From a virus (taxonomy: Duplodnaviria; Heunggongvirae; Uroviricota; Caudoviricetes), in IMG/VR virus record IMGVR_UViG_2671180456_000007, positions 1 through 33,775 of that record: DNA of 33,775 nucleotides, one strand, 5' to 3'. The notes under the pieces were generated by a model. That model did not search any database and had not been told where the DNA came from. It worked only from the letters and a program-made list of their open reading frames with translations. Within the stretch, counting starts at the first letter, position 1; every line of letters starts with the position of its first letter. Below are positions 1 to 30,704 of this stretch, one piece after another. Both the position numbers and the translations under genes were made by a program.

Positions 1-122
1 GGACAATCCAAATGGCGAATTACCGTCTTATATCACTGGCGCTGACATCTCCGGATGACGGGGGCAGCTGTTATCTCTGGCTCAACCGTGGGCAACCACC
101 CGCAGTTAACCGGCGACGATAA
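1..122 (+). CDS. Head-tail joining protein FII-like, C-terminal fragment (5' end lies outside the window)
   Basis: Open frame from position 3 to TAA at 120-122; translation ends ...SPDDGGSCYLWLNRGQPPAVNRRR, which resembles the C-terminus of lambda gpFII as I recall it; sits immediately upstream of Z. Confidence 0.55.
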   Translation, partial: TIQMANYRLISLALTSPDDGGSCYLWLNRGQPPAVNRRR

Positions 123-136
123 ACGCAGGGTGAATT

Positions 137-712
137 ATGGCGATAAAAGGGCTTGATCAGGCGATTGACAATCTGAGCCGGGTTCGTAAAAACGCCATTC
201 CGGCTGCTTCTGCAATGACCATTAACCGCGTGGCCACAACGGCGATTAATCAGTCTTCGTCACAGGTTGCCCGGGAAACCAGGGTGAGACGGAAACTGGT
301 AAAGGAACGGTCCAGACTGAAACGGGCGACGGTCAGAAATCCGAATGCCAGAATTATCGTTAACCGCGGTGATCTCCCTGTGATTAAGCTGGGGATCAGA
401 ATGCTGGGGCGTCGTCCGAACAGCATACTCAAAGCCGGTCAGCATCGTTATCAGCGGGCATTTATCCAGCGATTAAATAATGGGCGCTGGCATGTTATGC
501 AACGTCTTCCCCAGGCCAGATATGAGGAGGGCAATGACGACAAGGGAAGGAAAAAGCGTAATCGCCTTCCCATTCAGGTGGTGAAAATCCCGATGGCGGC
601 CCCACTGAAACAGGCATTTGATGAGAATGTTGACCGTATCCGGCGTGAACGCCTGCCTAAAGAACTGGCATACGCGCTGAAACAACAACTGAGGATTGCG
701 ATAAAACGATGA
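137..712 (+). CDS. Z: Minor tail protein Z (tail completion)
   Basis: 191-aa ORF, N-terminus MAIKGLDQAIDNLSR... and C-terminus ...[23 protein letters not shown] resemble lambda gpZ; stop overlaps the next start (ATGA). Confidence 0.85.
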   Translation: MAIKGLDQAIDNLSRVRKNAIPAASAMTINRVATTAINQSSSQVARETRVRRKLVKERSRLKRATVRNPNARIIVNRGDLPVIKLGIRMLGRRPNSILKAGQHRYQRAFIQRLNNGRWHVMQRLPQARYEEGNDDKGRKKRNRLPIQVVKIPMAAPLKQAFDENVDRIRRERLPKELAYALKQQLRIAIKR

Positions 713-1104
713 AACACACTGACATTCGTGCCGCAGTGCTGGATGCACTCGAGCAGCATGAACACGGGGCGACGCTGTTTGATGGTCGCCCCGTTGTTTT
801 TGACGAAGAGGATTTTCCTGCGATCGCGGTTTATCTGACGGATGCAGAGTATACCGGTGAAGAGCTGGATGCAGATACCTGGCGGGCCACACTGCATATT
901 GAGGTGTTTTTACCGGCACAGGTACCTGATTCGGAGCTCGATCAGTGGATGGAAAGCCGGATTTATCCGGCGATGACTGCGATCCCTGCACTGGCAGGAC
1001 TGATTACCACGATGGTTACGCAGGGCTATGAGTATCGTCGTGATGACGATATGGCGTTATGGAGCTCTGCGGATCTGACTTATTCCATTACATACGAGAT
1101 GTGA
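709..1104 (+). CDS. U: Tail terminator protein U
   Basis: 131-aa ORF (lambda gpU is 131 aa); [17 protein letters not shown]...[11 protein letters not shown] is lambda gpU-like; translationally coupled to Z. Confidence 0.85.
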
Positions 1105-1111
1105 GGACGAT

Positions 1112-1864
1112 ATGGCAACACCAAATCCCCTGGAGCCGGTAAAAGGTGCCGGTACCACTCTGTGGGTTTACAACGGCAAGGCTGATGCTTATGCAAACCC
1201 GTTGTCAGACGATGACTGGCAGCGACTGGCTAAGGTGAAGGATCTGACGCCGGGCGAGATGACGGCTGAATCCTATGATGATAACTACCTGGATGATGAA
1301 GACGCGGACTGGAGCGCGACCGGGCAGGGGCAGAAATCTGCAGGTGATACCAGTTTTACGCTGGCCTGGAAACCGGGAGAGGAAGGCCAGAAAGGGCTTA
1401 TAGGCTGGTTTGAAAGCGGCGATGTCCGGGCCTATAAAATCCGTTTTCCGAATGGCACGGTGGATGTGTTTCGTGGCTGGGTCAGCAGTATCGGTAAGGC
1501 CGTGACGGCGAAAGAAGTGATCACCCGCACGGTGAAAGTCACTAACGTGGGTAAACCTTCTGTAGCGGAAGAACGCAGCAAAATTACGCCGGTCAGTGCG
1601 ATTAAGGTGACGCCGACATCCGGTACGGTGGCAAAAGGGAAAACAACCACCCTGACGGTTTCTTTTGAGCCGGAAAGTGCAACCGACAAGACGTTCAGAG
1701 CGGTTTCCGCCGATCCGTCGAAAGCCACCATTAGTGTGAAAGATATGACAATTACGGTAAACGGCGTGGCGACAGGTAAGGTGCAGATCCCTGTGGTGAG
1801 CGGAAATGGTCAGTTCGCCGCAGTGGCTGAAGTCACCGTTACTGAAGCGGGCGCTGCAGGGTAA
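1112..1864 (+). CDS. V: Major tail tube protein V with C-terminal Ig-like domain
   Basis: 250-aa ORF; [15 protein letters not shown]...[41 protein letters not shown] is lambda gpV-like; RBS GAGGA upstream. Confidence 0.9.
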
Positions 1865-1877
1865 ACGGAGGTAATAC

Positions 1878-2309
1878 ATGTTTCTGAAAACAGAACAATT
1901 TGAATATAACGGTGTGTCTGTCACGCTTTCCGAATTGTCTGCGCTGCAGCGTATCGAGCATCTTGCCCTCCTGAAACGGCGTGCAGAACAGGCAGAATCC
2001 AGCGGCAACCTGCAGGTAAGCGTGGAAGATCTCGTCAGAACCGGCGCGTTTCTGGTGGCGATGTCCCTGTGGCATAACCATCCACAGAAAACGCAGTCAC
2101 CGTCAATGAATGAGGCCGTGATGAAGATAGAGCAGGAAGTGCTCACCACCTGGCCTGCCGATGCCATTGCCCGGGCGGAAGACGTGGTGTTGTGCCTGTC
2201 CGGGATGATCGAAGCTGTTCGTCCGGATACTGATATTACTGAAGTGGCGAAAAATAACACGCTGACTGATGATGATTTTTCTGCGGGAAAGTCTTCGACG
2301 GCGAGCTGA
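1878..2309 (+). CDS. G: Tail assembly chaperone G
   Basis: 143-aa ORF directly after V; ends ...DDDFSAGKSSTAS and contains the GGGAAAG slip site near its 3' end, as in lambda G. Confidence 0.85.
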   Translation: MFLKTEQFEYNGVSVTLSELSALQRIEHLALLKRRAEQAESSGNLQVSVEDLVRTGAFLVAMSLWHNHPQKTQSPSMNEAVMKIEQEVLTTWPADAIARAEDVVLCLSGMIEAVRPDTDITEVAKNNTLTDDDFSAGKSSTAS

Positions 2310-2749
2310 ACTTTGCCCTCAGACTGGCGCGTGAGATGGGGAGACCCGACTGGCGCGCCATGCTTGCCGGGATGACATCCACCGAATATGCCGACTGGCG
2401 CCGTTTTTACCGCACGCATTATTTTCAGGATACCCAGCTGGATATGCATTTTTCCGGGCTGACGTACGCTGTACTCAGCCTGTTTTTTTGCGATCCGGAT
2501 ATGCATCCCTCTGATTTCAGCCTGCTTGTCCCCCGGCATGAGGAAGAGCAGGTGGAGAGGCCGGATGAGGACAAAATGCTGATGCAGAAAGCGGCAGGAC
2601 TTGCCGGAGGCGTCCGGTTCGGTGGGGACGGAGGGCGCGATATTTTATCGTCTGCGGATGTGGCGGATGTCATGGTGGATGATGCCGCATTAATGATGGC
2701 TTCAGCGGGGATTCCGGGAGGTGTGAGATATGTCCCAGCCGGTTGGTGA
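1878..2749 (+). CDS. T: Tail assembly chaperone G-T fusion made by programmed -1 frameshift at 2285-2291
   Basis: The -1 frame is open from the slip site (GGG AAA GTC TTC GAC ...) through the ORF ending at 2749; lambda-like gene T sequence (RPDWRAMLAGMTSTEYADWRRFY...). Confidence 0.75.
2285..2291 (+). other. Programmed -1 ribosomal frameshift slippery heptamer G GGA AAG
   Basis: Heptamer GGGAAAG in the X XXY YYZ register of gene G (codons GCG GGA AAG), identical to the lambda G/GT slip site. Confidence 0.8.
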
Positions 2750-5303
2750 TCTTGTTATTGACCTGAGTCTGGATGCTGTCCGTTTCGATGAGCAGATGAG
2801 CCGGGTAAGGCGTCATTTTTCAGGTCTGGATACCGACGCCAGAAAAACCGCCAGTGCTGTTGAACAGGGCCTGAGCCGCCAGGCGCTGGCTGCACAAAAA
2901 GCCGGGATTTCCGTCGGGCAGTATAAAGCGGCCATGCGAACCCTGCCCGCACAGTTTACGGATATCGCCACGCAGCTTGCCGGTGGTCAGAATCCCTGGC
3001 TGATCCTGCTGCAACAGGGCGGTCAGGTGAAGGACTCCTTCGGCGGGATGATCCCCATGTTCAGGGGGCTTGCCGATGCGATCACCCTGCCGATGGTCGG
3101 GGTCACCTCGCTGGCGGTGGCGACAGGTGCACTGGTGTACGCCTGGTACCAGGGAGATTCCACGCTTTCAGCGTTTAATAAAACCCTGGTTCTTTCCGGT
3201 AATCAGTCCGGACTGACTGCCGATCGTATGCTGACTCTCTCAAGAGCCGGGCAGGCAGCAGGGCTGACGTTTAACCAGGCGAGAGAGTCACTGGCAGCCC
3301 TGGTGAATGCCGGTGTGCGTGGTGGTGAACAGTTTGATGCCATCAACCAGAGTGTCGCGCGTTTTGCGTCTGCATCCGGTGTGGAGGTGGATAAAGTCGC
3401 TGAAGCCTTCGGGAAGCTGACCACTGACCCGACGTCGGGACTGATGGCGATGGCGCGCCAGTTCCGTAACGTGACGGCAGAGCAGATTGCGTATGTTGCA
3501 CAGCTGCAGCGTTCCGGAGACGAGGCCGGGGCATTGCAGGCGGCGAACGATATCGCCACGAAAGGCTTTGATGAGCAGACCCGTCGCCTGAAAGAAAACA
3601 TGGGAACACTGGAGACCTGGGCGGATAAAACAGGGAAGGCATTCAAATCGATGTGGGATGCCATTCTGGATATCGGTCGTCCGGAATCCTCAGCGGATAT
3701 GCTCGCCAGTGCGCAGAAGGCATTTGATGAGGCGGATAAAAAATGGCAGTGGTACCAGAGTCGGAGCCAGCGCCGCGGTAAAACCTCCTCTTTCCGGGCC
3801 AACCTTCAGGGCGCATGGGATGACCGGGAAAATGCCCGTCTGGGTCTGGCAGCGGCAACGCTGCAGTCGGATATGGAAAAAGCCGGTGAACTGGCGGCAA
3901 GGGACAGGGCTGAGCGTGAGTCGTCACAGCTGAAGTATACCGGAGAGGCGCAGAAGGCGTATGAGCGCCTGCTGACGCCACTGGAGAAATATACCGCCCG
4001 GCAGGAAGAGCTGAATAAGGCCCTGAAAGACGGGAAAATCCTGCAGGCGGATTACAACACGCTGATGGCGTCGGCAAAAAAGGATTATGAGTCGACGCAG
4101 AAAAAGCCGTCCGGTGTGAAGGTGTCTGCCGGTGAGCGCCAGGAAGACCAGGCGCATGCAGCCCTGCTGGCGCTTGAAACTGAGCTCAGGACGCTGGAGA
4201 AGCACAGCGGTGCGAATGAAAAAATCAGCCAGCAGCGCCGTGATTTATGGAAAGCGGAAAATCAGTATGTGGTCCTGAAAGAGGCCGCCACGAAACGGCA
4301 GTTATCTGAGCAGGAAAAATCCCTGCTGGCCCATGAGAAAGAAACGCTGGAGTACAAACGCCAGCTGGCTGAGCTGGGCGACAAGATTGAACACCAGAAA
4401 CGGCTGAATGAGCTGGCACAGCAGGCGGCGCGGTTTGAACAGCAGCAGAGCGCGAAGCAGGCGGCAATCAGCGCAAAAGCCCGCGGACTCACCGACCGTC
4501 AGGCGCAGCGGGAGTCGGAAGAGCAGCGCCTTCGTGAGGTGTACGGTGATAATCCGGCTGCGCTGGCGAAGGCCACATCTGCACTGAAGAACACCTGGTC
4601 TGCGGAGGAGCAGCTTCGTGGAAGCTGGATGGCCGGGATGAAGTCCGGCTGGGGCGAGTGGGCGGAAAGTGCGACGGACAGTTTTTCGCAGGTTAAAAAC
4701 GCGGCCACGCAGACCTTTGACGGTATTGCACAGAATATGGCAGCGATGCTGATCGGCAGCGAACAGAACTGGCGTGGTTTCACCCGTTCTGTGCTGTCCA
4801 TGCTGACAGAGATTTTTCTGAAGCAGGCGATGGTGGGGATAGTCGGGAGTATCGGCAGCGCCATTGGCGGTGCTTTCGGTGGTGGTGCGTCTGCCTCCAC
4901 GGGGACGGCCATTCAGGCTGCGGCGGCGAACTTCCATTTCGCGACCGGGGGATTTACGGGGACGGGGGGTAAATATGAACCTGCGGGGATTGTTCATCGC
5001 GGGGAGTTTGTCTTCACGAAGGAGGCGACCAGCCGGATTGGTGTCGGCAATCTGTACCGCCTGATGCGGGGCTATGCGGAAGGTGGTTATGTCGGCGGTG
5101 CCGGAAGTCCGGCGCAGATGCGGCGGGCGGAAGGCATTAATTTTAATCAGAACAATCACGTGGTGATTCAGAACGACGGCCCCAACGGGCGGGCAGGGCC
5201 GCAGCTGATGAAAGCGGTGTATGAGATGGCCCGCAAGGGGGCACAGGATGAACTCCGGCTGCAGTTGCGTGATGGCGGTATGTTATCAGGGAGCGGTGGA
5301 TGA
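2730..5303 (+). CDS. H: Tail tape measure protein H
   Basis: 857-aa ORF (lambda gpH is about 853 aa); lambda-like N-terminus MSQPVGDLVIDLSLDAVRFDEQMSRVRRHF and C-terminus; coiled-coil-rich middle. Confidence 0.9.
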   Translation: MSQPVGDLVIDLSLDAVRFDEQMSRVRRHFSGLDTDARKTASAVEQGLSRQALAAQKAGISVGQYKAAMRTLPAQFTDIATQLAGGQNPWLILLQQGGQVKDSFGGMIPMFRGLADAITLPMVGVTSLAVATGALVYAWYQGDSTLSAFNKTLVLSGNQSGLTADRMLTLSRAGQAAGLTFNQARESLAALVNAGVRGGEQFDAINQSVARFASASGVEVDKVAEAFGKLTTDPTSGLMAMARQFRNVTAEQIAYVAQLQRSGDEAGALQAANDIATKGFDEQTRRLKENMGTLETWADKTGKAFKSMWDAILDIGRPESSADMLASAQKAFDEADKKWQWYQSRSQRRGKTSSFRANLQGAWDDRENARLGLAAATLQSDMEKAGELAARDRAERESSQLKYTGEAQKAYERLLTPLEKYTARQEELNKALKDGKILQADYNTLMASAKKDYESTQKKPSGVKVSAGERQEDQAHAALLALETELRTLEKHSGANEKISQQRRDLWKAENQYVVLKEAATKRQLSEQEKSLLAHEKETLEYKRQLAELGDKIEHQKRLNELAQQAARFEQQQSAKQAAISAKARGLTDRQAQRESEEQRLREVYGDNPAALAKATSALKNTWSAEEQLRGSWMAGMKSGWGEWAESATDSFSQVKNAATQTFDGIAQNMAAMLIGSEQNWRGFTRSVLSMLTEIFLKQAMVGIVGSIGSAIGGAFGGGASASTGTAIQAAAANFHFATGGFTGTGGKYEPAGIVHRGEFVFTKEATSRIGVGNLYRLMRGYAEGGYVGGAGSPAQMRRAEGINFNQNNHVVIQNDGPNGRAGPQLMKAVYEMARKGAQDELRLQLRDGGMLSGSGG

Positions 5304-5629
5304 AAACCTTTCGCTGGAAAGTGAAGCCGGATATGGAGGTGAACTCGCAGCCATCGGTGCGTGAAGTGCGTTTTGGTGACGGGTACTCACAGCGTATGGC
5401 GGCAGGGCTGAATGCTGACCTGAAAACATACAGGGTGACGCTTTCCGTGACCCGGGAGGAGGCCCAGCATCTGGAAGCGTTCCTGGCAGAGCACGGTGGC
5501 TGGAAGGCATTTTTGTGGAAGCCACCCTATGCATACCGGCAGATAAAGGTGACCTGTGCCGGGTGGTCTGCGCGGGTCGGGATGTTGCGCGTTGAGTTCA
5601 GCGCGGAGTTTAAGCAGGTGGTGAACTGA
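5300..5629 (+). CDS. M: Minor tail protein M
   Basis: 109-aa ORF (lambda gpM is 109 aa), ATGA overlap with H; lambda-like sequence. Confidence 0.85.
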   Translation: MKTFRWKVKPDMEVNSQPSVREVRFGDGYSQRMAAGLNADLKTYRVTLSVTREEAQHLEAFLAEHGGWKAFLWKPPYAYRQIKVTCAGWSARVGMLRVEFSAEFKQVVN

Positions 5630-6327
5630 TGCAGGATATTCGCGAAGAAAGTCTGAACGAGTCGGTTAAGTCAGAGCAGTCACCGCGGGTGGTACTCTGG
5701 GAAATCGACCTGACGGTACAGGGTGGTGAGCGGTATTTTTTCTGTAATGAGCTGAATGAAAAAGGGGAGCCGGTCACCTGGCAGGGGCGTAAGTATGAGG
5801 CATACCCGATTGACGGCAGCGGCTTTGAGATGAACGGCCGGGGCAGCAGTGCCAGACCGTCGCTGACGGTGTCCAATCTGTTCGGTCTGGTCACCGGGAT
5901 GGCGGAAGACCTGCAGAGTCTGGTGGGGGCCACGGTGGTCCGCCGCCGGGTGTATGCCCGTTTTCTGGATGCGGTGAATTTCGTTGCGGGCAATCCGGAG
6001 GCGGACCCGGAGCAGGAGCTGAGTGACCGCTGGGTGGTGGAGCAGATGTCGCAGCTGACAGCCATGACGGCCTCGTTTGTGCTGGCTACACCGACCGAGA
6101 CGGACGGGGCGCTGTTTCCCGGTCGCATCATGCTGGCGAACACCTGTATGTGGGATTACCGGGGAGATGAATGCGGGTATAACGGTCCTGCGGTGGCGGA
6201 TGAGTTCGACAACCCCACCACGGATATCCGTAAGGACAGATGCAGCAAGTGCATGCGCGGGTGTGAACTGCGCAGGAATGTCGGCAATTTTGGCGGTTTC
6301 CTTTCCATTAATAAACTTTCGCAGTAA
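5629..6327 (+). CDS. L: Minor tail protein L (C-terminal cysteine cluster)
   Basis: 232-aa ORF (lambda gpL is 232 aa); C-terminal motif CMWDYRGDECGY...CSKCMRGC consistent with the Fe-S-binding cysteines of gpL. Confidence 0.85.
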   Translation: MQDIREESLNESVKSEQSPRVVLWEIDLTVQGGERYFFCNELNEKGEPVTWQGRKYEAYPIDGSGFEMNGRGSSARPSLTVSNLFGLVTGMAEDLQSLVGATVVRRRVYARFLDAVNFVAGNPEADPEQELSDRWVVEQMSQLTAMTASFVLATPTETDGALFPGRIMLANTCMWDYRGDECGYNGPAVADEFDNPTTDIRKDRCSKCMRGCELRRNVGNFGGFLSINKLSQ

Positions 6328-6337
6328 ATCCCGGTTT

Positions 6338-7081
6338 ATGACACAGACTGAATCAGCGATTCTGGCACATGCCCGGCGGTGTGCGCCTGCGGAGTCGTGC
6401 GGCTTCGTGATAAGCACGCCGGAGGGGGAGCGGTATATCCCTTGTGTGAATATTTCCGCAGAGCCGGAGGCGTATTTTCGTATCGCACCGGAAGACTGGC
6501 TGCGGGCAGAGATGCAGGGGGAGATTGTGGCACTGGTCCACAGTCATCCCGGTGGGCTGCCCTGGCTGAGCGAGGCTGACCGGCGGTTGCAGATAAAAAG
6601 CGCACTGCCCTGGTGGTTGGTCTGCCGGGGTGACATTCACAAATTCCGCTGTGTGCCACATCTGACAGGACGGCGCTTTGAGCACGGGGTGACGGACTGT
6701 TACACGCTGTTCCGGGATGCTTATCATCTGGCGGGGACTGAAATGCCGGATTTTCATCGCGAGGATGACTGGTGGCGCAACGGTCAGAACCTTTACCTGG
6801 ACAATATGGCGGTCACCGGCTTTTACCGGGTGCCCCTGTCCTCTGCACAGGCGGGCGATATTCTGCTGTGCTGCTTTGGTGCTTCGGTACCGAACCATGC
6901 CGCCATTTACTGCGGCAACGGTGAGCTGCTTCACCATCTGCCTGAACAACTGAGTAAACGGGAGAGGTATTCCGAAAAATGGCAACGACGAACGCATTCA
7001 GTCTGGCGTCACCGCCACTGGCACGCATCTGCCTTCACGGGGATTTACAACGATTTGGCCGCCGCCTCAGCCTGTATGTGA
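6338..7081 (+). CDS. K: Tail tip assembly protein K (JAB/MPN plus NlpC/P60-like domains)
   Basis: ATG at 6338 follows the L stop; protein MTQTESAILAHARRCAPAESCGFV... has a JAMM-like motif HSHPGG...SEAD and an NlpC/P60-like Cys/His region (DCYTLFRDAYH). The ORF-finder start at 6077 is an upstream extension overlapping L; the 3' end overlaps gene I by about 100 nt. Confidence 0.75.
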   Translation: MTQTESAILAHARRCAPAESCGFVISTPEGERYIPCVNISAEPEAYFRIAPEDWLRAEMQGEIVALVHSHPGGLPWLSEADRRLQIKSALPWWLVCRGDIHKFRCVPHLTGRRFEHGVTDCYTLFRDAYHLAGTEMPDFHREDDWWRNGQNLYLDNMAVTGFYRVPLSSAQAGDILLCCFGASVPNHAAIYCGNGELLHHLPEQLSKRERYSEKWQRRTHSVWRHRHWHASAFTGIYNDLAAASACM

Positions 7082-7659
7082 ACACGGCAGCGGAAGCCAT
7101 TCGCGCCCTGTCGATGCAGATGCCGGGCTTTCGCCGTCAGATGAACGAAGGCTGGTACCAGATACGTATTGCCGGTTATGACACGGCACCGGAGGCGGTG
7201 TACGCCCGTCTTCACGAACAGCTGGGTGAGGGAACGGTCATCCACATTGTGCCGCGACTGGCCGGGGCCGGAAAGGGTGGACTGCAGATTGTGCTGGGGG
7301 CGGCAGCCATCGTGGGCTCTTTCTTCACTGCCGGGGCATCAATGGCGTTATGGGGTTCAGCCCTGGCAGCCGGTGGTTTTTCTGCCACCACGATGCTGTT
7401 TTCACTTGGAGCCAGCATGATTCTGGGCGGTGTGGCCCAGATGCTGGCCCCGAAGGCAAAAACACCGGATTACCGCGCAACGGATAACGGCAGACAGAAC
7501 ACGTACTTTTCCTCACTGGATAACATGATTGCCCAGGGGAACCCGATGCCGGTGCCTTACGGGGAAATGCTGGTTGGCTCCCGCCGTATATCCCAGGACA
7601 TCAGCACCCGTGATGAAGGCGGGGGCGGAAAGGTCGTGGTTATCGGGCGGCAGGGGTAA
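6979..7659 (+). CDS. I: Tail tip assembly protein I
   Basis: 226-aa ORF; ...ARICLHGDLQRFGRR...YQIRIAGYDT...GNPMPVPYGEMLVGSRRISQDISTRDEGGGGKVVVIGRQG is lambda gpI-like. Confidence 0.8.
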   Translation: MATTNAFSLASPPLARICLHGDLQRFGRRLSLYVNTAAEAIRALSMQMPGFRRQMNEGWYQIRIAGYDTAPEAVYARLHEQLGEGTVIHIVPRLAGAGKGGLQIVLGAAAIVGSFFTAGASMALWGSALAAGGFSATTMLFSLGASMILGGVAQMLAPKAKTPDYRATDNGRQNTYFSSLDNMIAQGNPMPVPYGEMLVGSRRISQDISTRDEGGGGKVVVIGRQG

Positions 7660-7666
7660 AAAGAAT

Positions 7667-7705
7667 AAAAAAATCCCGCAGTGATCGCGGACAGGAACTG
7701 CGGGA
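7667..7705 (-). terminator. Intrinsic terminator on the minus strand (8-bp stem TCCCGCAG/CTGCGGGA followed by a U7 tract on the minus-strand RNA)
   Basis: Plus-strand sequence AAAAAAA TCCCGCAG ...16 nt... CTGCGGGA; read on the minus strand this is a stem-loop followed by TTTTTTTATTCTTTTT. The 16-nt loop is large for a terminator. Confidence 0.5.
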
Positions 7706-7763
7706 GAGTTACGAAGATTAAGTGTAAGGAATTATTCTTATATCACGACAAAAAAATTAACGC
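7667..7763 (-). ncRNA. Candidate ~95-nt noncoding RNA from a moron in the I-J spacer
   Basis: Predicted transcript between the minus-strand sigma70-like promoter (7770-7798) and the minus-strand terminator (7667-7705); no ATG-initiated ORF inside. Confidence 0.35.
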
Positions 7764-7769
7764 AGAGAA

Positions 7770-7798
7770 ATTATACGCGCCACAGTCAGTTTGTGAAA
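7770..7798 (-). promoter_or_regulatory. Sigma70-like promoter on the minus strand: TTCACA, 17-nt spacer, TATAAT
   Basis: Minus-strand -35 TTCACA (plus 7793-7798) and -10 TATAAT (plus 7770-7775) with a 17-nt spacer; A/T-rich UP-like sequence upstream on the minus strand. Confidence 0.5.
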
Positions 7799-7872
7799 AT
7801 GTGAAGATATTCAGAATTTTTATGCCATTACCGGTTTTAACCAACAGGATTATCGGTGGGCATGAAAGAAAA

Positions 7873-7905
7873 CCCCGGTATCTGCTGATACCGGGGTTTC
7901 TCTTT
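7873..7905. terminator. Bidirectional intrinsic terminator hairpin (10-bp stem CCCCGGTATC/GATACCGGGG, loop TGCT) flanked by T-rich tracts on both strands
   Basis: Perfect 10-bp inverted repeat with a 4-nt loop; TTTCTCTTT follows on the plus strand and TTTTCTTTC on the minus strand. Confidence 0.55.
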
Positions 7906-8275
7906 AGCATGGCAGAAATGTGTTTCATGCTTTTCGGGCGAAGGATATCCGACTTCTGTACGGAATGGCAAGTGGCGGTTAATTTATTCAGGGGAAGGCT
8001 GTATGGGAAAAGGTGGCGGTAAGGCACACACGCCTCGTGAGGCGAAGGATAATCTCAAATCCACGCAGATGATGAGCGTGATTGATGCGATTGGTGAGGG
8101 ACTGATAGAAGGTCCGGTGAAGGGACTGCAGAGTATCCTGGTGAACAAAACCCCGCTGACGGACACGGACGGTAATCCCGTGATACACGGTGTGACGGCG
8201 GTCTGACGCGCCGGGGAGCAGGAGCAGACACCACCGGAAGGCTTTGAGTCCTCCGGTGCTGAAACCGGACTGGGC

Positions 8276-9919
8276 GTGGAAGTGACGAAGGCAAAACCGG
8301 TGACGCGCACCATTACGTCCGCGAACATTGACCGCCTGCGGGTTACCTTCGGGGTGCAGTCACTGGTGCAGACCACGTCAAAGGGTGACCGAAACCCGAC
8401 ATCCGTCCGCCTGCTGATTCAGTTACAGCGTAACGGTAACTGGGTGACAGAAAAGGATGTCACCATTAACGGCAAGACCACCTCGCAGTTTCTGGCGTCG
8501 GTGATTCTGGATAATCTGCCTCCCCGTCCTTTTAACATCCGGATGGTCCGGGAGACAGCGGACAGCACCACGGACCAGCTGCAGAATAAGACGCTGTGGT
8601 CGTCATACACCGAAATCATCGATGTGAAACAGTGCTACCCGAACACGGCCATTGTGGGGCTGCAGGTGGATGCGGAGCAGTTCGGCGGCCAGCAGATGAC
8701 GGTGAACTACCATATCCGCGGTCGCATCATCCAGGTGCCGTCAAACTATGACCCGGAAAAACGCACGTACAGTGGTATCTGGGACGGCAGCCTGAAACCG
8801 GCATACAGCAACAATCCGGCCTGGTGTCTGTGGGACATGCTGACTCACCCGCGCTACGGCATGGGAAAACGTCTGGGGGCGGCGGATGTGGACAAGTGGG
8901 CGCTGTATGCCATCGGGCAGTACTGCGACCAGACGGTCCCGGATAGTTTCGGGGAGACCGAGCCGCGGATGACCTTCAATGCGTACCTGGCACAACAGCG
9001 TAAGGCATGGGACGTGCTCAGTGATTTCTGCTCGGCGATGCGCTGTATGCCGGTATGGAACGGCCAGACGCTGACGTTTGTTCAGGACCGCCCGTCGGAT
9101 GTGGTGTGGCCGTACACCAACAGCGATGTGGTGGTGGATGATAACGGCGTGGGTTTCCGCTACAGCTTCAGTGCCCTGAAGGACCGGCACACGGCGGTGG
9201 AGGTGAATTATACCGACCCGCAGAACGGCTGGCAGACCTCCACGGAACTGGTGGAAGACCCGGAAGCCATACTGCGCTACGGACGCAACCTGCTGAAGAT
9301 GGACGCGTTCGGCTGTACCAGCCGCGGTCAGGCCCACCGTGCCGGACTGTGGGTGATAAAGACCGAACTGCTGGAAACGCAGACGGTGGATTTCACGCTC
9401 GGGTCTCAGGGGCTGCGGCACACACCCGGTGACATCATTGAAATCTGTGATAACGACTATGCCGGGACCCTGACCGGCGGACGTGTCCTGTCCATTGATG
9501 CTGCCACCCGCACTCTGACGCTGGACCGTGAAGTGACACTTCCGGAGACCGGTGCCGCCACGGTGAACCTGATTAACGGCAGCGGTAAGCCGGTGAGTGT
9601 GGACATCACCGAACACCCCGCGCCGGACCGGATACAGGTCAGTACCCTGCCTGATGGTGTGGAGACATACGGGGTGTGGGGACTCTCCCTGCCGTCACTG
9701 CGCCGTCGCCTGTTCCGCTGTGTCTCCGTCCGGGAAAACACGGACGGCACCTTTGCCATCACGGCGGTGCAGCACGTACTGGAAAAAGAAGCCATCGTGG
9801 ATAACGGTGCCCGCTTTGAGCCGCAGTCAGGTTCCCTGAACAGCGTCATCCCACCGGCAGTGCAGCACCTGACGGCCAGTATCTGGCGCAGGCGAAATGG
9901 GACACGCCGCGGGTGGTGA
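8276..9919 (+). CDS. J: J protein central fragment (the frame is open from 8207; GTG at 8276 is the first possible start)
   Basis: 547-aa ORF with lambda J-like sequence ([29 protein letters not shown]... [29 protein letters not shown]...). Confidence 0.6.
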
Positions 9920-11454
9920 AGGGTGTGCGCTTCAGTCTGCGCCTGACCAGTGGTAAGGGAACGGATGCCAGACTGGTGACCACCGCCATCACCGCAGACA
10001 CGGAGCACCGTTTCAGCGGCCTGCCGCTCGGGGAATACACCCTGACGGTGCGGGCGATAAACAGCTATGGCCAGCAGGGTGAACCTGCCACCACCACCTT
10101 CCGGATTGCCGCACCGGCAGCACCGTCGCGGATTGAGCTGACGCCGGGCTATTTTCAGATAACCGCAACGCCGCATCTTGCCGTTTATGACCCGACGGTA
10201 CAGTTTGAGTTCTGGTTCTCGGAAAAGCGGATTGCGGATATCAGGCAGGTTGAAACCACAGCACGCTATCTTGGCACGGCGCTGTACTGGATAGCCGCCA
10301 GTATCAATATCAAACCGGGCCATGATTATTATTTTTACGTTCGCAGTGTGAACACCGTTGGCAAATCGGCATTCGTGGAGGCTGTCGGTCGGGCGAGCGA
10401 TGATGCGGAAGGTTACCTGGATTTTTTCAAAGGAGAGATAGGGAAAACACATCTGGCTCAGGAGCTGTGGACGCAGATTGATAACGGTCAGCTTGCGCCT
10501 GACCTGGCTGAAATCAGGACGTCCATTACGGATGTCAGCAATGAAATCACGCAGACTGTCAATAAGAAACTGAAAGACCAGAGTGCGGCAATCCAGCAGA
10601 TACAGAAGGTTCAGGTTGATACAAATAATAATCTGAACAGCATGTGGGCTGTGAAGCTGCAACAGATGAAGGACGGACGCCTTTATATTGCGGGTATCGG
10701 TGCCGGTATTGAGAATACGCCAGCAGGAATGCAGAGTCAGGTGCTGCTGGCGGCAGACAGGATTGCGATGATTAATCCTGCGAATGGCAACACAAAGCCG
10801 ATGTTTGTTGGTCAGGGCGATCAGATATTCATGAACGACGTGTTCCTGAAACGCCTGACGGCTCCCACCATTACCAGCGGCGGTAATCCTCCGGCATTTT
10901 CCCTGACACCGGACGGAAAACTGACCGCTAAAAATGCAGATATCAGTGGCAGTGTGAATGCGAACGCCGGGACGCTCAACAATGTCACAATTAATGAGAA
11001 CTGTCAGATTAAGGGGAAACTGTCAGCCAACCAGATTGAAGGCGATATAGTCAAAACAGTGGGTAAGGCTTTTCCGCGGGACTCCCGGGCACCGGAGCGG
11101 TGGCCATCAGGGACCATTACCGTCAGGATTTATGACGATCAGCCTTTTGACAGGCAAATTGTTATTCCGGCGGTGGCATTCAGCGGCGCTAAACATGAGC
11201 GGGAGAATAACGATATTTATTCGTCATGCCGCCTGATAGTACGGAAAAACGGTGCTGAAATTTATAACCGTACCGCGCTGGATAATACGCTGATTTACAG
11301 TGGTGTTATTGATATGCCAGCTGGTCGCGGCCACATGACGCTGGAGTTTTCGGTGTCAGCATGGCTGGTGAATAACTGGTATCCCACAGCAAGTATCAGC
11401 GATTTGCTGGTTGTGGTGATGAAGAAAGCCACCGCAGGCATCAGTATCAGCTGA
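9913..11454 (+). CDS. J: J protein C-terminal fragment (fibronectin-like repeats and receptor-binding end)
   Basis: 513-aa ORF; ...[54 protein letters not shown]... is lambda J-like. Confidence 0.6.
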
Positions 11455-11473
11455 ATTTTATAACCCATATACG

Positions 11474-11500
11474 GGCGCCAGAAATGGCGCCTTTTTTATT
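11474..11500 (+). terminator. Rho-independent terminator after J (stem GGCGCCA/TGGCGCC, loop GAAA, T6 tract)
   Basis: GGCGCCAGAAATGGCGCCTTTTTTATT immediately downstream of the J stop codon. Confidence 0.65.
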
Positions 11501-12272: not shown

Positions 12273-15200
12273 ATGACAGTAAAAATTTCTGGCGTGCTTA
12301 AAGATGGCACAGGAAAACCAGTACAGAACTGCACCATTGTGCTGAAGGCCAGACGAACCAGCAGCACGATGGTGGTGAACACGGTGGCCTCTGAAAATCC
12401 GGATGAAGCCGGACGTTACAGCATGGATGTTGAGCATGGTCAGTACAGCGTCACCCTGCTGGTTGAAGGTTTTCCGCCTTCACATGCCGGGACCATTACC
12501 GTCTATGAAGGTTCCAGACCAGGTACGCTGAATGATTTTCTCGGTGCCATGACGGAGGATGATGTCCGACCGGAGGCACTGCGCCGCTTTGAGCAGATGG
12601 TGGAAGAGGTGTCACGTAACGCCTCCGCGGTTGCACAGAATACGGCAGCCGCGAAAAAATCAGCCAGCGAGGCGGCAACTCATGCAACCGATGCTGCAGC
12701 CTCAGCACGTGCCGCCAGCACGTCAGCCGGACAGGCCGCGTCGTCGGCTCAGTCAGCGTCTTCCAGCGCAGGAACGGCATCGACAAAGGCCCGTGAAGCA
12801 GCAAAAAGTGCTGCTGCAGAGTCATCAAAAAGCGCGGCAGCTACCAGCGCCAGTGCCGCGAAAACGTCAGAAACGAATGCCGCAGCATCACAAAAATCGG
12901 CAGCCACTTCTGCATCCACAGCGACCACGAAGGCGTCAGAAGCTGCCACCTCGGCACGGGGTGCGGCGGCCTCAAAAGAGGCAGCGAAATCTTCAGAAAC
13001 GAATGCATCATCAAGTGCCAGTAGTGCAGCTTCCTCGGCAACGGCGGCAGGAAATTCCGCGAAGGCGGCAAAAACGTCCGAGACGAACGCTAAGTCTTCT
13101 GAAACAGCAGCGGGACAGAGCGCCTCAGCTGCGGCAGGTTCAAAAACAGCGGCTGCATTATCTGCCAGTGCCGCGTCAACAAGTGCCGGGCAGGCCTCAG
13201 CCAGTGCCACCGCCGCCGGAAAATCGGCAGAAAGCGCCGCATCATCCGCTTCAACAGCCACAACGAAGGCTGGCAAAGCCACTGAGCAAGCCACTGCAGC
13301 AGCGAGGTCTGCTTCTGCAGCAAAAACCTCTGAAACAAATGCAAAGACTTCAGCAGACAATGCTGCTTCCTCTAAGGCAGCAGCCGCATCGTCAGCCAGT
13401 TCAGCGGCGTCATCGGCATCATCTGCGTCTGCTTCAAAAGATGAGGCGACCAGACAAGCGTCAGCAGCGAAAGGTAGTGCCACGACAGCAACAACGAAAG
13501 CATCAGAGGCGGCAGGCAGTGCGACGGCTGCATCTCAGAGCAAAGTTGCTGCTGAATCCGCGGCAACGCGCGCCGAGACAGCAGCAAAACGGGCAGAGGA
13601 TATTGCATCCGCCGTGGCGCTGGAGGATGCGAGCACGACGAAAAAGGGGATAGTACAGCTCAGCAGTGCGACCAACAGCACATCTGAAACGCTGGCCGCA
13701 ACGCCAAAAGCAGTTAAAGCAGCCAATGACAATGCGAATAGCCGATTGGCGAAGAATCAGAATGGCGCTGATATCCCCGACAAGGCCCGCTTCCTGAGTA
13801 ACATTAATGCTGCCAGCAAGACTGATATGGCCTCTAAACGAGGAATGAAGTATTCGACAGTGAATGCGCCCGCAGGAGTTGAAGCAGGTAAGTTTTATCC
13901 TGTGGTCATTCGTCGTTCTGCTGGATTCGTCGATGAATTAGCATCTAGGGTAACGATAAGCACAAGTTCAAGAACAGGAAACCACAGACTGAACAACTGC
14001 GAGTTCAACGGATTTGTCATGCCCGGTGGTTGGACTGACAGAGGAAAATATGCTTATGGGATGTTTCACGCATATACTGCAAGTGAACGTGCTATTCATT
14101 CTATCATGATGGGTAACAAAGCGGATGATCTTTGTTCTGTGTTCTATGTTGAAGGTGAAGCGTTTCCTATTGCTGTATATGTAGAAGAAGGCTTATCTGT
14201 TGTTGTACCATCTGCCGATTATGTCGTCGGACAAACAACTTACAAATGGGGCGCCACTAACCCTAAAACAGAATGCGTTGCCGCTGATACTATACTTGAT
14301 TTCTCAAATGGTAGAGGGTTTTATAGTTCGCACTCATTCCTCACAAATGCAGACATTAGCGGTAATAAGGTTTACGCTAATGATGAAGTTATTGTCCGTA
14401 GTCAGAATGCGTTAAGGATGATTGCTGGCGATTACGGTGTCATATGGCGAAATGATGGAGCAAATACTTACTTGCTCATGACTGATAAAGGCGACCAGTA
14501 CGGTGGCTGGAACGGTCTTCGACCATTTGCAGTAAATAACGCAACAGGTGAAGTGACGATCAATACACCACTTAATTCTCCAAAAGGGGTTAAGGGGAAC
14601 TCTGATACAGCTACGAAACTTCAGACTGCAAGAAAAATATCCGGTGTTCCATTTGATGGCTCTACTGATATCACTTTAACCGCCGCGCATGTTGCCGCTT
14701 TCGCAAGAAGAGCAACAGGGTCATATGCTGATGCTGATGGCGGCGTGCCGTGGAATGCTGAATCTGGTGCTTATAATGTAAATAGAACGGGCGACAGTTA
14801 TATTCTTGCCAACTTTTATACTGGTGTAGGTGGTTGCCGTACGCTTCAAATTAAGGCTCACTATAAAAATGGTGGGTTGTTTTATCGTTCATCTCGCGAT
14901 GGCTATGGTTTTGAAAGTGGTTGGGAGCAGGTTTACACGACTGGATTTAGACCTCAGCCGGCTGATATAAACGCACCAACCGCTGCCGACGGATGGTTAA
15001 ATAGTGGTAACGGAACAGCATTTACGACTGCTCAGTTTATAACGTGGCTAAATAATCAGGGTGCATTTTCAAACAAATATTGGATTGCACGGTGCTCATG
15101 GTATTACGCCAACAATAATTATATAGACGACACTGGTTGCGGTAGGATCGATCTATCTGGTTCCGTGATTGAGGTGTTTAGTAATAAGACAACAAGCAAT

Positions 15201-17315
15201 TACACTATTCGTGTTACAACGACAACAACATCGGGTCATGGTGGCGTTAATAATGCGGAATTTATTTATGTGTACAATGGCAGTGATTACTCGCCAGGCT
15301 GGCGTCGTTCTTATAATACTAGAAACAAACCAACAGCTTCTGATGTAGGAGCATTATCGCTTTCTGGAGGAGCGTTAACTGGCGGATTAACTGCTGCTGG
15401 CGAGATTATTTCAAAATCGGCGAATGGTCTGCGCATTGCCTACGGAAACTACGGATTCTTTATCCGAAACGATGGTTCAAGCACATACTTCATGTTGACC
15501 GATTCGGGTAACAGCCTGGGAACCTATAATAGTTTAAGGCCGCTTATCATTAACAATGCCAATGGTGCTGTTACGATCGGTAATGGACTCAATGTTACTG
15601 GCGGCATCAATGGTAGTTTGAACGGTAATGCTTCAACAGCTACGAAGTTGCAAACAGCGAGAAACATCAATGGTGTTAAGTTTGATGGTTCAGGCGATAT
15701 CAATATTAATACATTGGTATCTCGTGGCCGAGTTACGGCGTTAAGCGGCTCTACTCAAGGCACTGCTGGCATTCAAATGTATGAGGCGTACAACAATAGC
15801 TACCCGACCACGTATGGCAACGTATTGCACATGAAAGGTGCGAGTGCTGCTGGTGAGGGCGAGTTGCTTATTGGCTGGAGCGGAACGGATGGTGCTCATG
15901 CACCGGTTTATGTTCGTTCACGCCGTGATACTTCGACAGCGAACTGGTCTGGCTGGGCGCAGATCTACACAACTGCTCATAAACCCACTGCGGCTGATGT
16001 CGGTGCGTTGCCGAGCGGTGGCGGCACACTTTCCGGCGCACTCACATTATCTATGGCTGCGCCAAGTGTCCAGTTACGAGGGCAAGGTACGGACACCAGA
16101 CAGTACATCATGGCTTACAGAACCGATGGCGCTACATCATGGTATGTGGGCAAGGCTAACAACGGCTCCGATAATGCGATGTTCTGGAACTATACCGGCT
16201 CCAACGGAATTGAATTGGCTGCCGATGGCAATGTGCGTATTAATGCGAAGGGTAAACAGTTTACGTTCGCAAACAATGGGAACTTAGGTCTTGTTGCTTC
16301 GTTGGATCAGAGTTCAGTTCCACAGGGTACTTACCATCAAGTAGCTCTTAACACTGGCACTGTTGGTGGTAAATCGTACCTTCGAAAATTCCGCGGCGGC
16401 AACACAGACACCATTTGGCATGAGACGGTTCAGGGCGGCTTACTTCGTTGGGCAACCGGCAATGCTGATGAGCAAGAAGAACTGTCTATCAGTACTGGCT
16501 ATGGTGTTCGAGCAAGAGGTGAAATCACTTCCCTTAGCGCCAATGGTCTAAGAGTGGCTTACGGGAATTACGGCTTCTTTATTCGCAATGATGGCGGAAC
16601 AACTTACTTCATGCTGACTGCTTCTGGCGACAAGTTCGGAAGCTGGAATGCTTTGCGTCCAATGTACATTAACAACGCTTCAGGCGCGGTTACGATGGGG
16701 AACGGGTTGTCGCTTGCCGGTGGCTTAAATGTCACGAGCGGAAATATCCGAATCCCGACGTCGAGTACATCTTGGATCGACATGAGAAACAATGCCGCTC
16801 TGTCTAACAGTTCTGCGGTTGCCACTTCCTCTGCATCGGCCATTATTCGTCAGGAGCACGCCGATCGTCATTATTTTGTTGGTGGTTTAGGCAACTCTCA
16901 GTTCGGGTTCTACATGATTAACAAGTCACGAACCGCGAACGGCACGGATGCGAACGCATACCTCCAGAATGACGGTACTTGGGTTTGCGGCGGTAATGGC
17001 AGCTTTAATGACGTTTATATCCGTTCTGACCGCCGTAGTAAGCGCAATATTCGCAAGATTGACCGGGCGCTCGACAAGCTGGAGCAGATCGAAGGTGTTC
17101 TCTACGAGATTCAGGTCTGTGGCCGTTATGAGCAGTCTGGTGGCCTCATCGCTCAGGATGTCCAGAATGTTCAACCTGAACTGGTAACGGTCGACCATAA
17201 CGATCAGTCAGGAGAGCCTCGTCTGCGTCTTAACTACAACGGCGTTATCGGCATGTTGGTTGAGGCTGTCAAAGAGCTGCGCGAGGAAGTGCGCGAACTG
17301 AAGGCAAAAATGTAA
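12273..17315 (+). CDS. stf: Side tail fiber protein, chimeric: lambda Stf-like N-terminus, Ala/Ser-rich repeat segment, three ~100-aa T-even-like distal fiber repeats, C-terminal intramolecular chaperone (peptidase S74-like) domain
   Basis: 1680-aa ORF; N-terminus MTVKISGVLKDGTGKPVQNCTIVLKAR... is lambda Stf-like; repeated AKTSETNA motifs; three repeats of the form (A)NGLR(I/V)AYGNYGFFIRNDG..TYFMLT..G...NSLRP..INNA.GAVT; C-terminal ...DVYIRSDRRSKRNIRKIDRALDKLEQIEGVLYE matches the SDxxxKxNI autoproteolytic chaperone motif. Confidence 0.85.
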   Translation: MTVKISGVLKDGTGKPVQNCTIVLKARRTSSTMVVNTVASENPDEAGRYSMDVEHGQYSVTLLVEGFPPSHAGTITVYEGSRPGTLNDFLGAMTEDDVRPEALRRFEQMVEEVSRNASAVAQNTAAAKKSASEAATHATDAAASARAASTSAGQAASSAQSASSSAGTASTKAREAAKSAAAESSKSAAATSASAAKTSETNAAASQKSAATSASTATTKASEAATSARGAAASKEAAKSSETNASSSASSAASSATAAGNSAKAAKTSETNAKSSETAAGQSASAAAGSKTAAALSASAASTSAGQASASATAAGKSAESAASSASTATTKAGKATEQATAAARSASAAKTSETNAKTSADNAASSKAAAASSASSAASSASSASASKDEATRQASAAKGSATTATTKASEAAGSATAASQSKVAAESAATRAETAAKRAEDIASAVALEDASTTKKGIVQLSSATNSTSETLAATPKAVKAANDNANSRLAKNQNGADIPDKARFLSNINAASKTDMASKRGMKYSTVNAPAGVEAGKFYPVVIRRSAGFVDELASRVTISTSSRTGNHRLNNCEFNGFVMPGGWTDRGKYAYGMFHAYTASERAIHSIMMGNKADDLCSVFYVEGEAFPIAVYVEEGLSVVVPSADYVVGQTTYKWGATNPKTECVAADTILDFSNGRGFYSSHSFLTNADISGNKVYANDEVIVRSQNALRMIAGDYGVIWRNDGANTYLLMTDKGDQYGGWNGLRPFAVNNATGEVTINTPLNSPKGVKGNSDTATKLQTARKISGVPFDGSTDITLTAAHVAAFARRATGSYADADGGVPWNAESGAYNVNRTGDSYILANFYTGVGGCRTLQIKAHYKNGGLFYRSSRDGYGFESGWEQVYTTGFRPQPADINAPTAADGWLNSGNGTAFTTAQFITWLNNQGAFSNKYWIARCSWYYANNNYIDDTGCGRIDLSGSVIEVFSNKTTSNYTIRVTTTTTSGHGGVNNAEFIYVYNGSDYSPGWRRSYNTRNKPTASDVGALSLSGGALTGGLTAAGEIISKSANGLRIAYGNYGFFIRNDGSSTYFMLTDSGNSLGTYNSLRPLIINNANGAVTIGNGLNVTGGINGSLNGNASTATKLQTARNINGVKFDGSGDININTLVSRGRVTALSGSTQGTAGIQMYEAYNNSYPTTYGNVLHMKGASAAGEGELLIGWSGTDGAHAPVYVRSRRDTSTANWSGWAQIYTTAHKPTAADVGALPSGGGTLSGALTLSMAAPSVQLRGQGTDTRQYIMAYRTDGATSWYVGKANNGSDNAMFWNYTGSNGIELAADGNVRINAKGKQFTFANNGNLGLVASLDQSSVPQGTYHQVALNTGTVGGKSYLRKFRGGNTDTIWHETVQGGLLRWATGNADEQEELSISTGYGVRARGEITSLSANGLRVAYGNYGFFIRNDGGTTYFMLTASGDKFGSWNALRPMYINNASGAVTMGNGLSLAGGLNVTSGNIRIPTSSTSWIDMRNNAALSNSSAVATSSASAIIRQEHADRHYFVGGLGNSQFGFYMINKSRTANGTDANAYLQNDGTWVCGGNGSFNDVYIRSDRRSKRNIRKIDRALDKLEQIEGVLYEIQVCGRYEQSGGLIAQDVQNVQPELVTVDHNDQSGEPRLRLNYNGVIGMLVEAVKELREEVRELKAKM

Positions 17316-19657: not shown

Positions 19658-19666
19658 TGTCGAAGT

Positions 19667-19684
19667 TCCCCTCAAATGAGGGGG
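19667..19684. terminator. Hairpin between convergent genes (stem TCCCCTC/GAGGGGA, loop AAAT); probable bidirectional terminator
   Basis: 7-bp GC-rich inverted repeat between the lipoprotein gene (+) and the GNAT toxin gene (-). Confidence 0.4.
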
Positions 19685-19689
19685 ACACA

Positions 19690-30699: not shown

Positions 30700-30704
30700 A
30701 TTTA

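What the first reader, a model, noticed from the sequence alone, without database searches (positions are those of the whole stretch)
8198..8212. In-frame opal codon interrupting tail fiber gene J in a leaky context
The J reading frame runs ...G V T A V TGA R A G E Q E Q T P P E G F E S S..., with lambda J-like sequence on both sides of the TGA at 8204-8206 and no frame change. The stop is followed by C (UGA-C), one of the more readthrough-prone contexts in E. coli. Either J is a nonsense pseudogene, so the element could not make infectious tails without complementation, or full-length J is made at reduced level by readthrough, or this is a sequencing or assembly error.
Basis: seen in the sequence. 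Interest (0 to 1): 0.5.

Follow-up and report, generated by a model that had tools for sequence, protein, structure and literature searches.

The report
Dead tail-tip gene in Shigella prophage remnant
The stop codon inside the phage tail-tip gene J is real and inherited, but it is only one of several disabling mutations in a decayed, headless prophage remnant of Shigella sonnei, so it is an ordinary pseudogene and not a case of stop-codon readthrough.

Summary
J starts at ATG 8003, and an in-frame TGA at 8204-8206, followed by C, interrupts lambda-J-like sequence. The closest intact J genes (98% and 95% identical) have TGG (Trp) there, so the lesion is one G>A transition.

A 22-bp deletion between two 7-nt direct repeats (CTGACGG, one copy left at 9869-9875) shifts the frame, which then stops at 9917-9919. 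Readthrough of the opal codon therefore could not give full-length J.

Four more substitutions hit residues that are invariant in 14 full-length J proteins, including lambda J.

Both lesions occur together in all 14 other sequences examined, including Shigella sonnei 53G. The exact 67-aa truncated product is on 551 contigs, which rules out a sequencing error. Two of those sequences carry a further 17-bp deletion.

In S. sonnei chromosomes, two IS elements replace everything between the holin region and gene Z: endolysin, terminase, portal, capsid and head-tail genes. The element cannot make virions whatever the state of J.

The window is a whole S. sonnei draft contig. Its right 20 kb is an SSU5-like phage-plasmid, joined inside a 59-nt identical stretch of the tail-fibre gene. 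That join is probably an assembly chimera.

Verdict: a real but ordinary pseudogene, of low interest.

The parts
8003..11454 (+). Pseudogene of lambda-type tip attachment / host specificity protein J (3452 nt; intact relatives are 3474 nt and 1157 aa)
   Evidence: 98.0% identical over window 7600-11500, which contains J, to the E. coli FDAARGOS_1255 locus with intact gpJ, and 95% to the phage vB_EcoS-783R2 locus. Pfam gpJ domains lie on both sides of the lesions.
8204..8206 (+). In-frame opal codon (W68*), followed by C at 8207. It derives from TGG by a G>A change at 8206
   Evidence: Searches show the stop. One search shows TGG in both close intact relatives. One search shows W or F at this column in all 14 full-length J proteins compared.
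8003..8206 (+). The 67-aa N-terminal fragment, which is all that normal termination at the opal codon would yield
   Evidence: The exact product is recorded on 551 contigs and in 633 blocks of the collection, and is named Shigella sonnei in source records.
9869..9876 (+). Scar of a 22-bp deletion. One copy of the 7-nt direct repeat CTGACGG is left. Relatives have CTGACGG-TGGAGGTGAGCGCAG-CTGACGG. The result is a frameshift
   Evidence: Alignment to L001 and L002. All close relatives span 3922-3924 bases where the window has 3901. The deletion lies inside the first Ig-like domain, where the Ig_J profile match starts only at position 26.
9917..9919 (+). First stop codon met in the shifted frame after the deletion. 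It ends any readthrough product at 638 aa
9877..11454 (+). C-terminal third of J (Ig_J, Ig_J_second, Phage_Tail_Tip and the Ig_GpJ_C receptor-binding domain), now out of frame with the N-terminal part
   Evidence: Gene callers report it as a 513-aa ORF from GTG 9913. No Shine-Dalgarno sequence lies before that GTG.
8103..8103 (+). P34L (CCG>CTG) at a residue invariant in 14 full-length J proteins
   Evidence: The ancestral C is still present in L007, which already carries TGA and the 22-bp deletion.
8945..8955 (+). G315S (8945, GGT>AGT) and G318E (8955, GGG>GAG) in the invariant motif VPDGFGGTEPR
   Evidence: L007 keeps the ancestral G at 8945.
9780..9780 (+). P593L (CCG>CTG) at a residue invariant in 14 full-length J proteins
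1..47 (.). Outer end of an IS21-family element (the terminal ...CGCTGACA reads TGTCAGCG... inwards). It abuts the last ~75 nt of the FII-like head-tail joining gene and marks the left edge of the surviving tail module
   Evidence: Homology to intact lambdoid prophages starts at window 48. Positions 1-47 match S. sonnei chromosomes just next to istA/istB genes. That 1-47 is the IS terminus itself is read from the sequence and was not shown by comparison with an IS.
137..7659 (+). Tail genes Z, U, V, G, T, H, M, L, K and I, apparently intact in this contig
   Evidence: ORF lengths equal those of intact relatives.

Best explanation
J is a dead gene in a decaying lambdoid prophage remnant of the Shigella sonnei chromosome. 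The remnant lost its selective constraint, at the latest when two IS elements and an associated deletion removed the endolysin, terminase, portal, capsid and head-tail genes. Whether that loss came before or after the J lesions is not resolved. J then picked up ordinary spontaneous mutations: a TGG>TGA transition at codon 68, a 22-bp slippage deletion between two CTGACGG repeats that shifts the frame, and G:C>A:T missense changes at conserved residues. These were inherited clonally. Some sublineages have added a 17-bp deletion. Translation of any J mRNA ends at the opal codon after 67 residues. The few percent of ribosomes that might read UGA-C as Trp would stop again at 9917-9919 and could not make the receptor-binding part. 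Shown here: the lesions, their ancestral states, their co-inheritance and the loss of partner genes. Inferred: the order 'loss of constraint, then lesions', and the absence of any function for the fragments.
For: TGG in the closest intact alleles, and W or F in all 14 full-length homologues. The 22-bp deletion, frameshift and downstream stop. Both lesions are present in all 4 IMG/VR contigs and all 10 NCBI assemblies examined, including S. sonnei 53G HE616528.1. The truncated product is on 551 contigs, with source names Shigella sonnei. No single-piece match to the deletion junction appears among the top-ranked hits from 5,426 complete E. coli genomes, where one would rank first. Four missense changes hit invariant residues. 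L007 carries the two main lesions but only two of the four missense changes, and L005 and L016 carry an extra 17-bp deletion, so decay is stepwise and continuing. In the S. sonnei chromosome an IS3-family and an IS21-family element sit between holin/DUF1327 and Z, where intact relatives have lysozyme, Rz, Nu1, A, W, B, C, D, E, FI and FII. Other strains show further damage to H, I and stf. There is no slippery site, no Shine-Dalgarno sequence before the internal GTGs and no suppressor tRNA in the window. S. sonnei is known for IS expansion and for pseudogenes made by nonsense and frameshift mutations (PMC7373316).
Against: J is the only tail gene broken in this contig, although it makes up only about a quarter of the 12.8-kb module. 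The chance that both truncating lesions fall in J is about 0.07, so selection for losing J cannot be excluded. dN/dS against the closest intact allele is 0.16, which shows that most divergence predates inactivation and that decay is recent and slight. Expression was not measured. The 10 NCBI chromosomes were retrieved through the truncated product, so they say nothing about whether the TGA is fixed in the species. They do show that the 22-bp deletion always accompanies it.
Confidence: 0.94

Rival explanations
1. Leaky termination: full-length J is made at a low level by readthrough of the UGA-C codon.
For: The UGA-C context is present. UGA is read through at about 2-4% in E. coli K-12 through competition of Trp-tRNA(Trp) with RF2 (PMC10570021). 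Trp is the ancestral residue. From my own knowledge, UGAC is the weakest E. coli stop signal in Poole, Brown and Tate 1995.
Against: The 22-bp deletion shifts the frame 1.67 kb downstream, so the readthrough product ends at 9917-9919 without the tail-tip and receptor-binding domains. No -1 slippery heptamer could restore the frame. Homologues have a sense codon, so the stop is not a conserved recoding signal. The remnant has no head genes to go with a tail.
Confidence: 0.01
2. Sequencing or assembly error: the true sequence has a sense codon.
For: The window is a short-read draft contig, and a single-base substitution is the kind of error such data can hold.
Against: The identical TGA is in 14 other sequences from other assemblies, including finished chromosomes. 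The exact truncated 67-aa product is on 551 contigs. The 22-bp deletion always accompanies it.
Confidence: 0.01
3. Loss of J was selected for, or a fragment is kept for a function. For example, the intact 513-aa receptor-binding C-terminal ORF, or the remaining tail genes, might serve the host, and J inactivation is adaptive and not neutral decay.
For: Both truncating lesions fall in J while Z to I, lom and stf stay open in this contig. The 1.5-kb C-terminal ORF has no further stops.
Against: At this young age (dN/dS 0.16, few lineage-specific changes), open frames are what chance alone would give. There is no ribosome-binding site before GTG 9913 or GTG 8276. Other strains break H, I, stf and J again. 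The late-operon promoter region is separated from the tail genes by two IS elements.
Confidence: 0.04

Closest known systems
Lambda gpJ (tip attachment / host specificity protein J) of lambdoid prophages, closest to the ompW-site prophages of E. coli and to phage vB_EcoS-783R2
   Same: Same gene order (K, I, J, lom, stf). 98% and 95% nucleotide identity over window 7600-11500, which contains J. The same Pfam domain series: FNIII-A_GpJ, Phage-tail_3, Ig_J, Ig_J_second, Phage_Tail_Tip, Ig_GpJ_C.
   Different: The reading frame is broken by W68* and by a 22-bp frameshifting deletion, and four invariant residues are replaced. No single product can contain all the domains.
Shigella pseudogenes and IS-mediated genome degradation (Hawkey et al. 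2020, PMC7373316)
   Same: Inactivation by a nonsense mutation and a frameshifting indel, fixed in a clonal lineage, next to IS-mediated deletion, with strain-to-strain differences in further decay.
   Different: Nothing essential. This is one more example, in prophage cargo and not in a metabolic gene.
Defective lambdoid prophages of E. coli K-12, such as Rac, Qin and e14 (own knowledge)
   Same: Partial lambdoid modules kept in the chromosome after loss of the genes needed for virion production.
   Different: Here a nearly complete tail module survives with only J broken, and the head module is replaced by IS elements.
Programmed stop-codon readthrough, for example the Q-beta A1 protein at UGA (own knowledge)
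   Same: An in-frame UGA in a weak context, with coding sequence continuing in frame immediately downstream.
   Different: The stop is not conserved in homologues. The downstream frame is broken. No function depends on the extension.

Membership tests
Lambda gpJ tip attachment protein (functional member) | Sequence and domain homology to gpJ over the whole length | tested here: met
   All six gpJ Pfam domains are found across the fragments. 98% nucleotide identity to the locus of an intact gpJ.
Lambda gpJ tip attachment protein (functional member) | Position in the tail operon between I and lom/stf | tested here: met
   Gene order Z-U-V-G-T-H-M-L-K-I-J-lom-stf.
Lambda gpJ tip attachment protein (functional member) | One uninterrupted ORF of about 1130-1160 codons | tested here: not met
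   Stop at codon 68 and a frameshift after codon 624.
Programmed stop-codon readthrough (recoding) | The stop codon is conserved at the same position in homologues | tested here: not met
   TGG in the closest relatives, and W or F in 14 of 14 full-length J proteins.
Programmed stop-codon readthrough (recoding) | The downstream frame stays open to a functional C-terminus | tested here: not met
   The 22-bp deletion brings a stop at 9917-9919.
Programmed stop-codon readthrough (recoding) | A weak termination context (UGA followed by C) | tested here: met
   TGAC at 8204-8207. That this context is weak rests on the literature and on my own knowledge.
Programmed stop-codon readthrough (recoding) | The extended product is detectable | not testable with these tools
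   This needs a reporter assay or proteomics.
Bacterial pseudogene in a defective prophage | Disabling lesions relative to intact orthologues | tested here: met
   W68*, the 22-bp deletion and four changes at invariant residues.
Bacterial pseudogene in a defective prophage | Lesions are inherited and are not artefacts of one assembly | tested here: met
   Both lesions are in 14 of 14 other sequences from other assemblies, and the truncated product is on 551 contigs.
Bacterial pseudogene in a defective prophage | Partner genes needed for the same function are lost | tested here: met
   The endolysin-to-FII block is absent and replaced by IS3-family and IS21-family elements.
Bacterial pseudogene in a defective prophage | Continuing, lineage-specific decay | tested here: met
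   An extra 17-bp deletion in L005 and L016. H, I and stf are broken in other strains.
Bacterial pseudogene in a defective prophage | No functional product | not testable with these tools
   This needs expression data.

The most novel reading that the evidence does not exclude
The join between the chromosomal prophage remnant and the SSU5-like phage-plasmid at 13623-13681 might be real and not an assembly chimera. In that isolate the phage-plasmid would have recombined with the chromosome through the shared tail-fibre segment. This would create a 1680-aa hybrid side tail fibre and place a dead J next to a live phage-plasmid, with the surviving lambdoid tail genes or J fragments available for exchange. 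The second part of this reading is less likely.
Probability: 0.08. Interest if true: 0.35.

Novelty: already known. Interest (0 to 1): 0.07.

Why it matters
It matters little beyond annotation. Gene callers report the three J fragments (67, 547 and 513 aa) as separate 'host specificity proteins' in hundreds of S. sonnei assemblies. They should be read as one pseudogene. The two linked lesions (W68* and the 22-bp deletion), with the later P34L and G315S changes and the 17-bp deletion, give a small ordered series of markers for the decay of this prophage remnant in the S. sonnei lineage. The case also shows that a single in-frame stop in a leaky context should not be read as recoding until the whole gene has been checked against intact homologues.

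Tried and rejected
1. Recoding. I looked for a -1 slippery heptamer in the overlap of the two frames (9821-9917) and for Shine-Dalgarno sequences before GTG 8276 and GTG 9913. None were found.

2. Suppressor tRNA. The four tRNA genes in the window are Asn-GTT, Tyr-GTA, Thr-TGT and Ser-TGA. The last has anticodon UGA and reads UCA, so none is an opal suppressor.

3. RNA families. Rfam at gathering thresholds finds only tRNAs in the window and nothing near the stop.

4. Source among complete E. coli genomes. The best match is only 98%, and the top-ranked matches to the deletion junction are all two-piece, so none of them has the deletion. This pointed to Shigella.

5. GTDB species representatives. 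A scan for the TGA allele gave no hit.

6. Fixation in S. sonnei, tested independently of J through the IS/FII junction pattern in IMG/VR. The extra contigs were too short or were scaffolds that do not reach J, so the test was uninformative.

7. A paper in the library stating the weakness of the E. coli UGAC context. I found only mammalian statements, so the E. coli claim rests on my own knowledge.

8. Selenocysteine. I did not pursue it, because the ancestral codon is TGG.

Full report
**Observation.** The window reads GTC TGA CGC at 8201-8209 in the J frame. The TGA is at 8204-8206 and is followed by C. J begins at ATG 8003, which matches the annotated gpJ start of the closest relative. The frame is otherwise open from 8003 to 9917. 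The text on both sides is lambda-J-like...HGVTAV*RAGEQEQTPPEGFESS..., where lambda has ...GVTVVFRAGEQEQTPPEGFESS.

**A second lesion.** The map of stops in the three frames shows that J does not continue in this frame to its end. Frame 2 stops at 9917-9919, and the rest of J runs in frame 1 to 11454. I aligned 7600-11500 with the two best intact relatives. These are E. coli FDAARGOS_1255 (98.0% identity, annotated 'phage attachment tail tip protein J', 3474 nt) and phage vB_EcoS-783R2 (95.1%). The alignment shows two things.
- Both relatives have TGG where the window has TGA, so the stop is a single G>A change at 8206 (W68*).
- The window lacks 22 bases that the relatives have between two copies of CTGACGG (CTGACGG-TGGAGGTGAGCGCAG-CTGACGG). 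One copy remains at 9869-9875.

This is the usual footprint of slippage or recombination between short direct repeats. Because 22 is not a multiple of three, the frame shifts. All full-length matches in the phage and E. coli collections span 3922-3924 bases where the window has 3901.

**Consequences for the readthrough idea.** The residue at the stop is Trp in the close relatives and Phe in the lambda type (14 of 14 full-length J proteins). UGA is read through mainly by Trp-tRNA competing with RF2, at about 2-4% in K-12 reporters (PMC10570021). From my own knowledge, UGA-C is the weakest E. coli stop signal (Poole, Brown and Tate 1995). But a ribosome that reads through would meet the frameshift and stop at 9917-9919, giving 638 residues. 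That product holds FNIII-A_GpJ and Phage-tail_3. It lacks most of Ig_J and all of Ig_J_second, Phage_Tail_Tip and the C-terminal receptor-binding domain Ig_GpJ_C, which lie in the other frame. There is no X XXY YYZ heptamer in the 9821-9917 overlap that could restore the frame. There is no Shine-Dalgarno sequence before the internal GTGs at 8276 and 9913. The four tRNA genes in the window are not suppressors. Full-length J by readthrough is therefore excluded.

**Not an error.**
- Exact-pattern scans of IMG/VR found the TGA allele in four contigs from four different genome entries. The deletion junction was found in the same four.
- Looking up the exact 67-aa product (8003-8206) found it in 633 blocks of the assembly collection. 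Ten NCBI assemblies were read, nine of them on contigs of 4.5-5.0 Mb, including HE616528.1. All ten also carry the 22-bp deletion.
- HE616528 is cited in Shigella sonnei genome papers.
- The cluster look-up gives 551 contigs for the 67-aa product, with source names Shigella sonnei for all three fragments. The longest contig listed for the 513-aa fragment is 33,775 bp, the length of the window.
- A further look-up identifies the window as contig CXDZ01000040.1 of GCA_001258175.1.
- Among 5,426 complete E. coli genomes, the top-ranked matches to the deletion junction are all two-piece matches spanning 122 bases, so none of them has the deletion.

**More decay.**
- Against the closest intact allele there are about 35 synonymous and 19 non-synonymous differences, giving dN/dS of 0.16. 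Most of the divergence therefore predates inactivation, which is recent.
- Four of the non-synonymous changes hit residues invariant in all 14 full-length J proteins compared, lambda included: P34L, G315S, G318E and P593L. All are G:C>A:T transitions, like W68*.
- Among the S. sonnei-type sequences, L007 has the TGA and the 22-bp deletion but still has the ancestral bases for P34 and G315. L005 and L016 carry a further 17-bp deletion at 9656-9672.
- The lesions thus form an ordered, continuing series, as expected without selection.

**The element.**
- Window 1-13717 matches S. sonnei chromosomes at 99.9%.
- Homology to intact lambdoid prophages starts only at window 48, within the last ~75 nt of the FII-like gene. 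I read window 1-47 as the end of an IS21-family element, because istA/istB lie directly upstream in the chromosomes.
- In the S. sonnei chromosome, the order upstream of Z is RusA, Q-type antiterminator, a methylase, a NanS-like esterase, holin, DUF1327, an IS3-family element, an IS21-family element, then Z.
- Intact relatives have lysozyme, Rz, Nu1, A, W, portal, protease, D, E, FI and FII in that place. The remnant therefore cannot package DNA, build heads or lyse the cell, whatever the state of J.
- Other strains show added damage: H split in L015, I split in L013, IS insertions in stf in L014 and L017.
- This fits what is known of S. sonnei, namely IS expansion and many lineage-fixed and strain-variable pseudogenes defined by nonsense or frameshift mutations (PMC7373316).

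**The rest of the window.**
- From about 13682 to the end, the window is 98.4% identical to the corresponding part of pEC16-2 (111.8 kb) and matches other plasmids of about 107-120 kb at 97-99%. These carry a DnaB-like helicase, primase, ligase, integrase and a receptor-recognising protein, which I read as an SSU5-like phage-plasmid. One such plasmid is known in S. sonnei.
- The switch from 'equals chromosome' to 'equals plasmid' happens cleanly inside a 59-nt stretch (13623-13681) that is identical in both. It lies within a ~900-bp tail-fibre segment the two share at about 87% identity.
- The resulting 1680-aa hybrid tail-fibre ORF exists on this one contig only, out of the whole collection.
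- The contig also starts at an IS end, so the simplest reading is a short-read assembly chimera. A true recombinant is not excluded.

**Comparison and verdict.** By sequence, domains and position, the gene belongs to the lambda gpJ family. As a functional member it fails the test of an uninterrupted ORF. It fails two defining tests of programmed readthrough: the stop is not conserved, and the downstream frame is not open. It meets every testable criterion of a pseudogene in a defective prophage. The finding is real, explained and ordinary.

Noticed in passing
window 12813-13718; switch point 13623-13681: The contig changes from S. sonnei chromosome (prophage stf gene) to an SSU5-like ~110-kb phage-plasmid inside a 59-nt stretch that is identical in both. 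The resulting 1680-aa hybrid tail-fibre ORF (12273-17315) is found on this contig only. The join is probably an assembly chimera and possibly a real recombinant.
   Followed up: partly
window 1-47: The contig starts with the outer end of an IS21-family element that abuts the last ~75 nt of the FII-like gene. In S. sonnei chromosomes this IS and an IS3-family element replace the whole endolysin-to-FII block of the prophage.
   Followed up: yes
window 7660-8002 (spacer between I and J): This 343-bp non-coding spacer is 60 nt in lambda but is also present in the close relatives. It holds a perfect 13-nt hairpin (7870-7882 / 7887-7899). On the minus strand it has an 11-of-12 sigma-70-like promoter (7797 to 7770) followed by a terminator-like hairpin (7691 to 7675). 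This could be a small antisense or sRNA unit. There is no Rfam match.
   Followed up: no
window 30625-31278: A cluster of four tRNA genes (Asn-GTT, Tyr-GTA, Thr-TGT, Ser-TGA) lies in the phage-plasmid part. None is a suppressor.
   Followed up: partly
L005 and L016, corresponding to window 9656-9672: Two of the S. sonnei-type sequences examined carry an additional 17-bp deletion in J. This is a third truncating lesion and a possible lineage marker.
   Followed up: partly
window 10259-10263: There are three clustered substitutions in which this contig differs from all 13 other S. sonnei-type sequences. Two of them match the E. coli allele. This could be a small gene-conversion patch from another J copy, or a local assembly mix of paralogous prophage reads.
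   Followed up: no
window 19310-20211 (minus strand): A GNAT-family acetyltransferase lies next to a small TacA/DUF1778-like gene, which looks like a TacT/TacA-type toxin-antitoxin pair. It is on the phage-plasmid part, as in pEC16-2.
   Followed up: no
L028 (IMGVR_UViG_2698536458_000001): This contig has the same IS/FII junction sequence but a tail module only 93% identical, and its J is only 77% identical. The same IS-truncated architecture therefore occurs with a different tail cassette.
   Followed up: no
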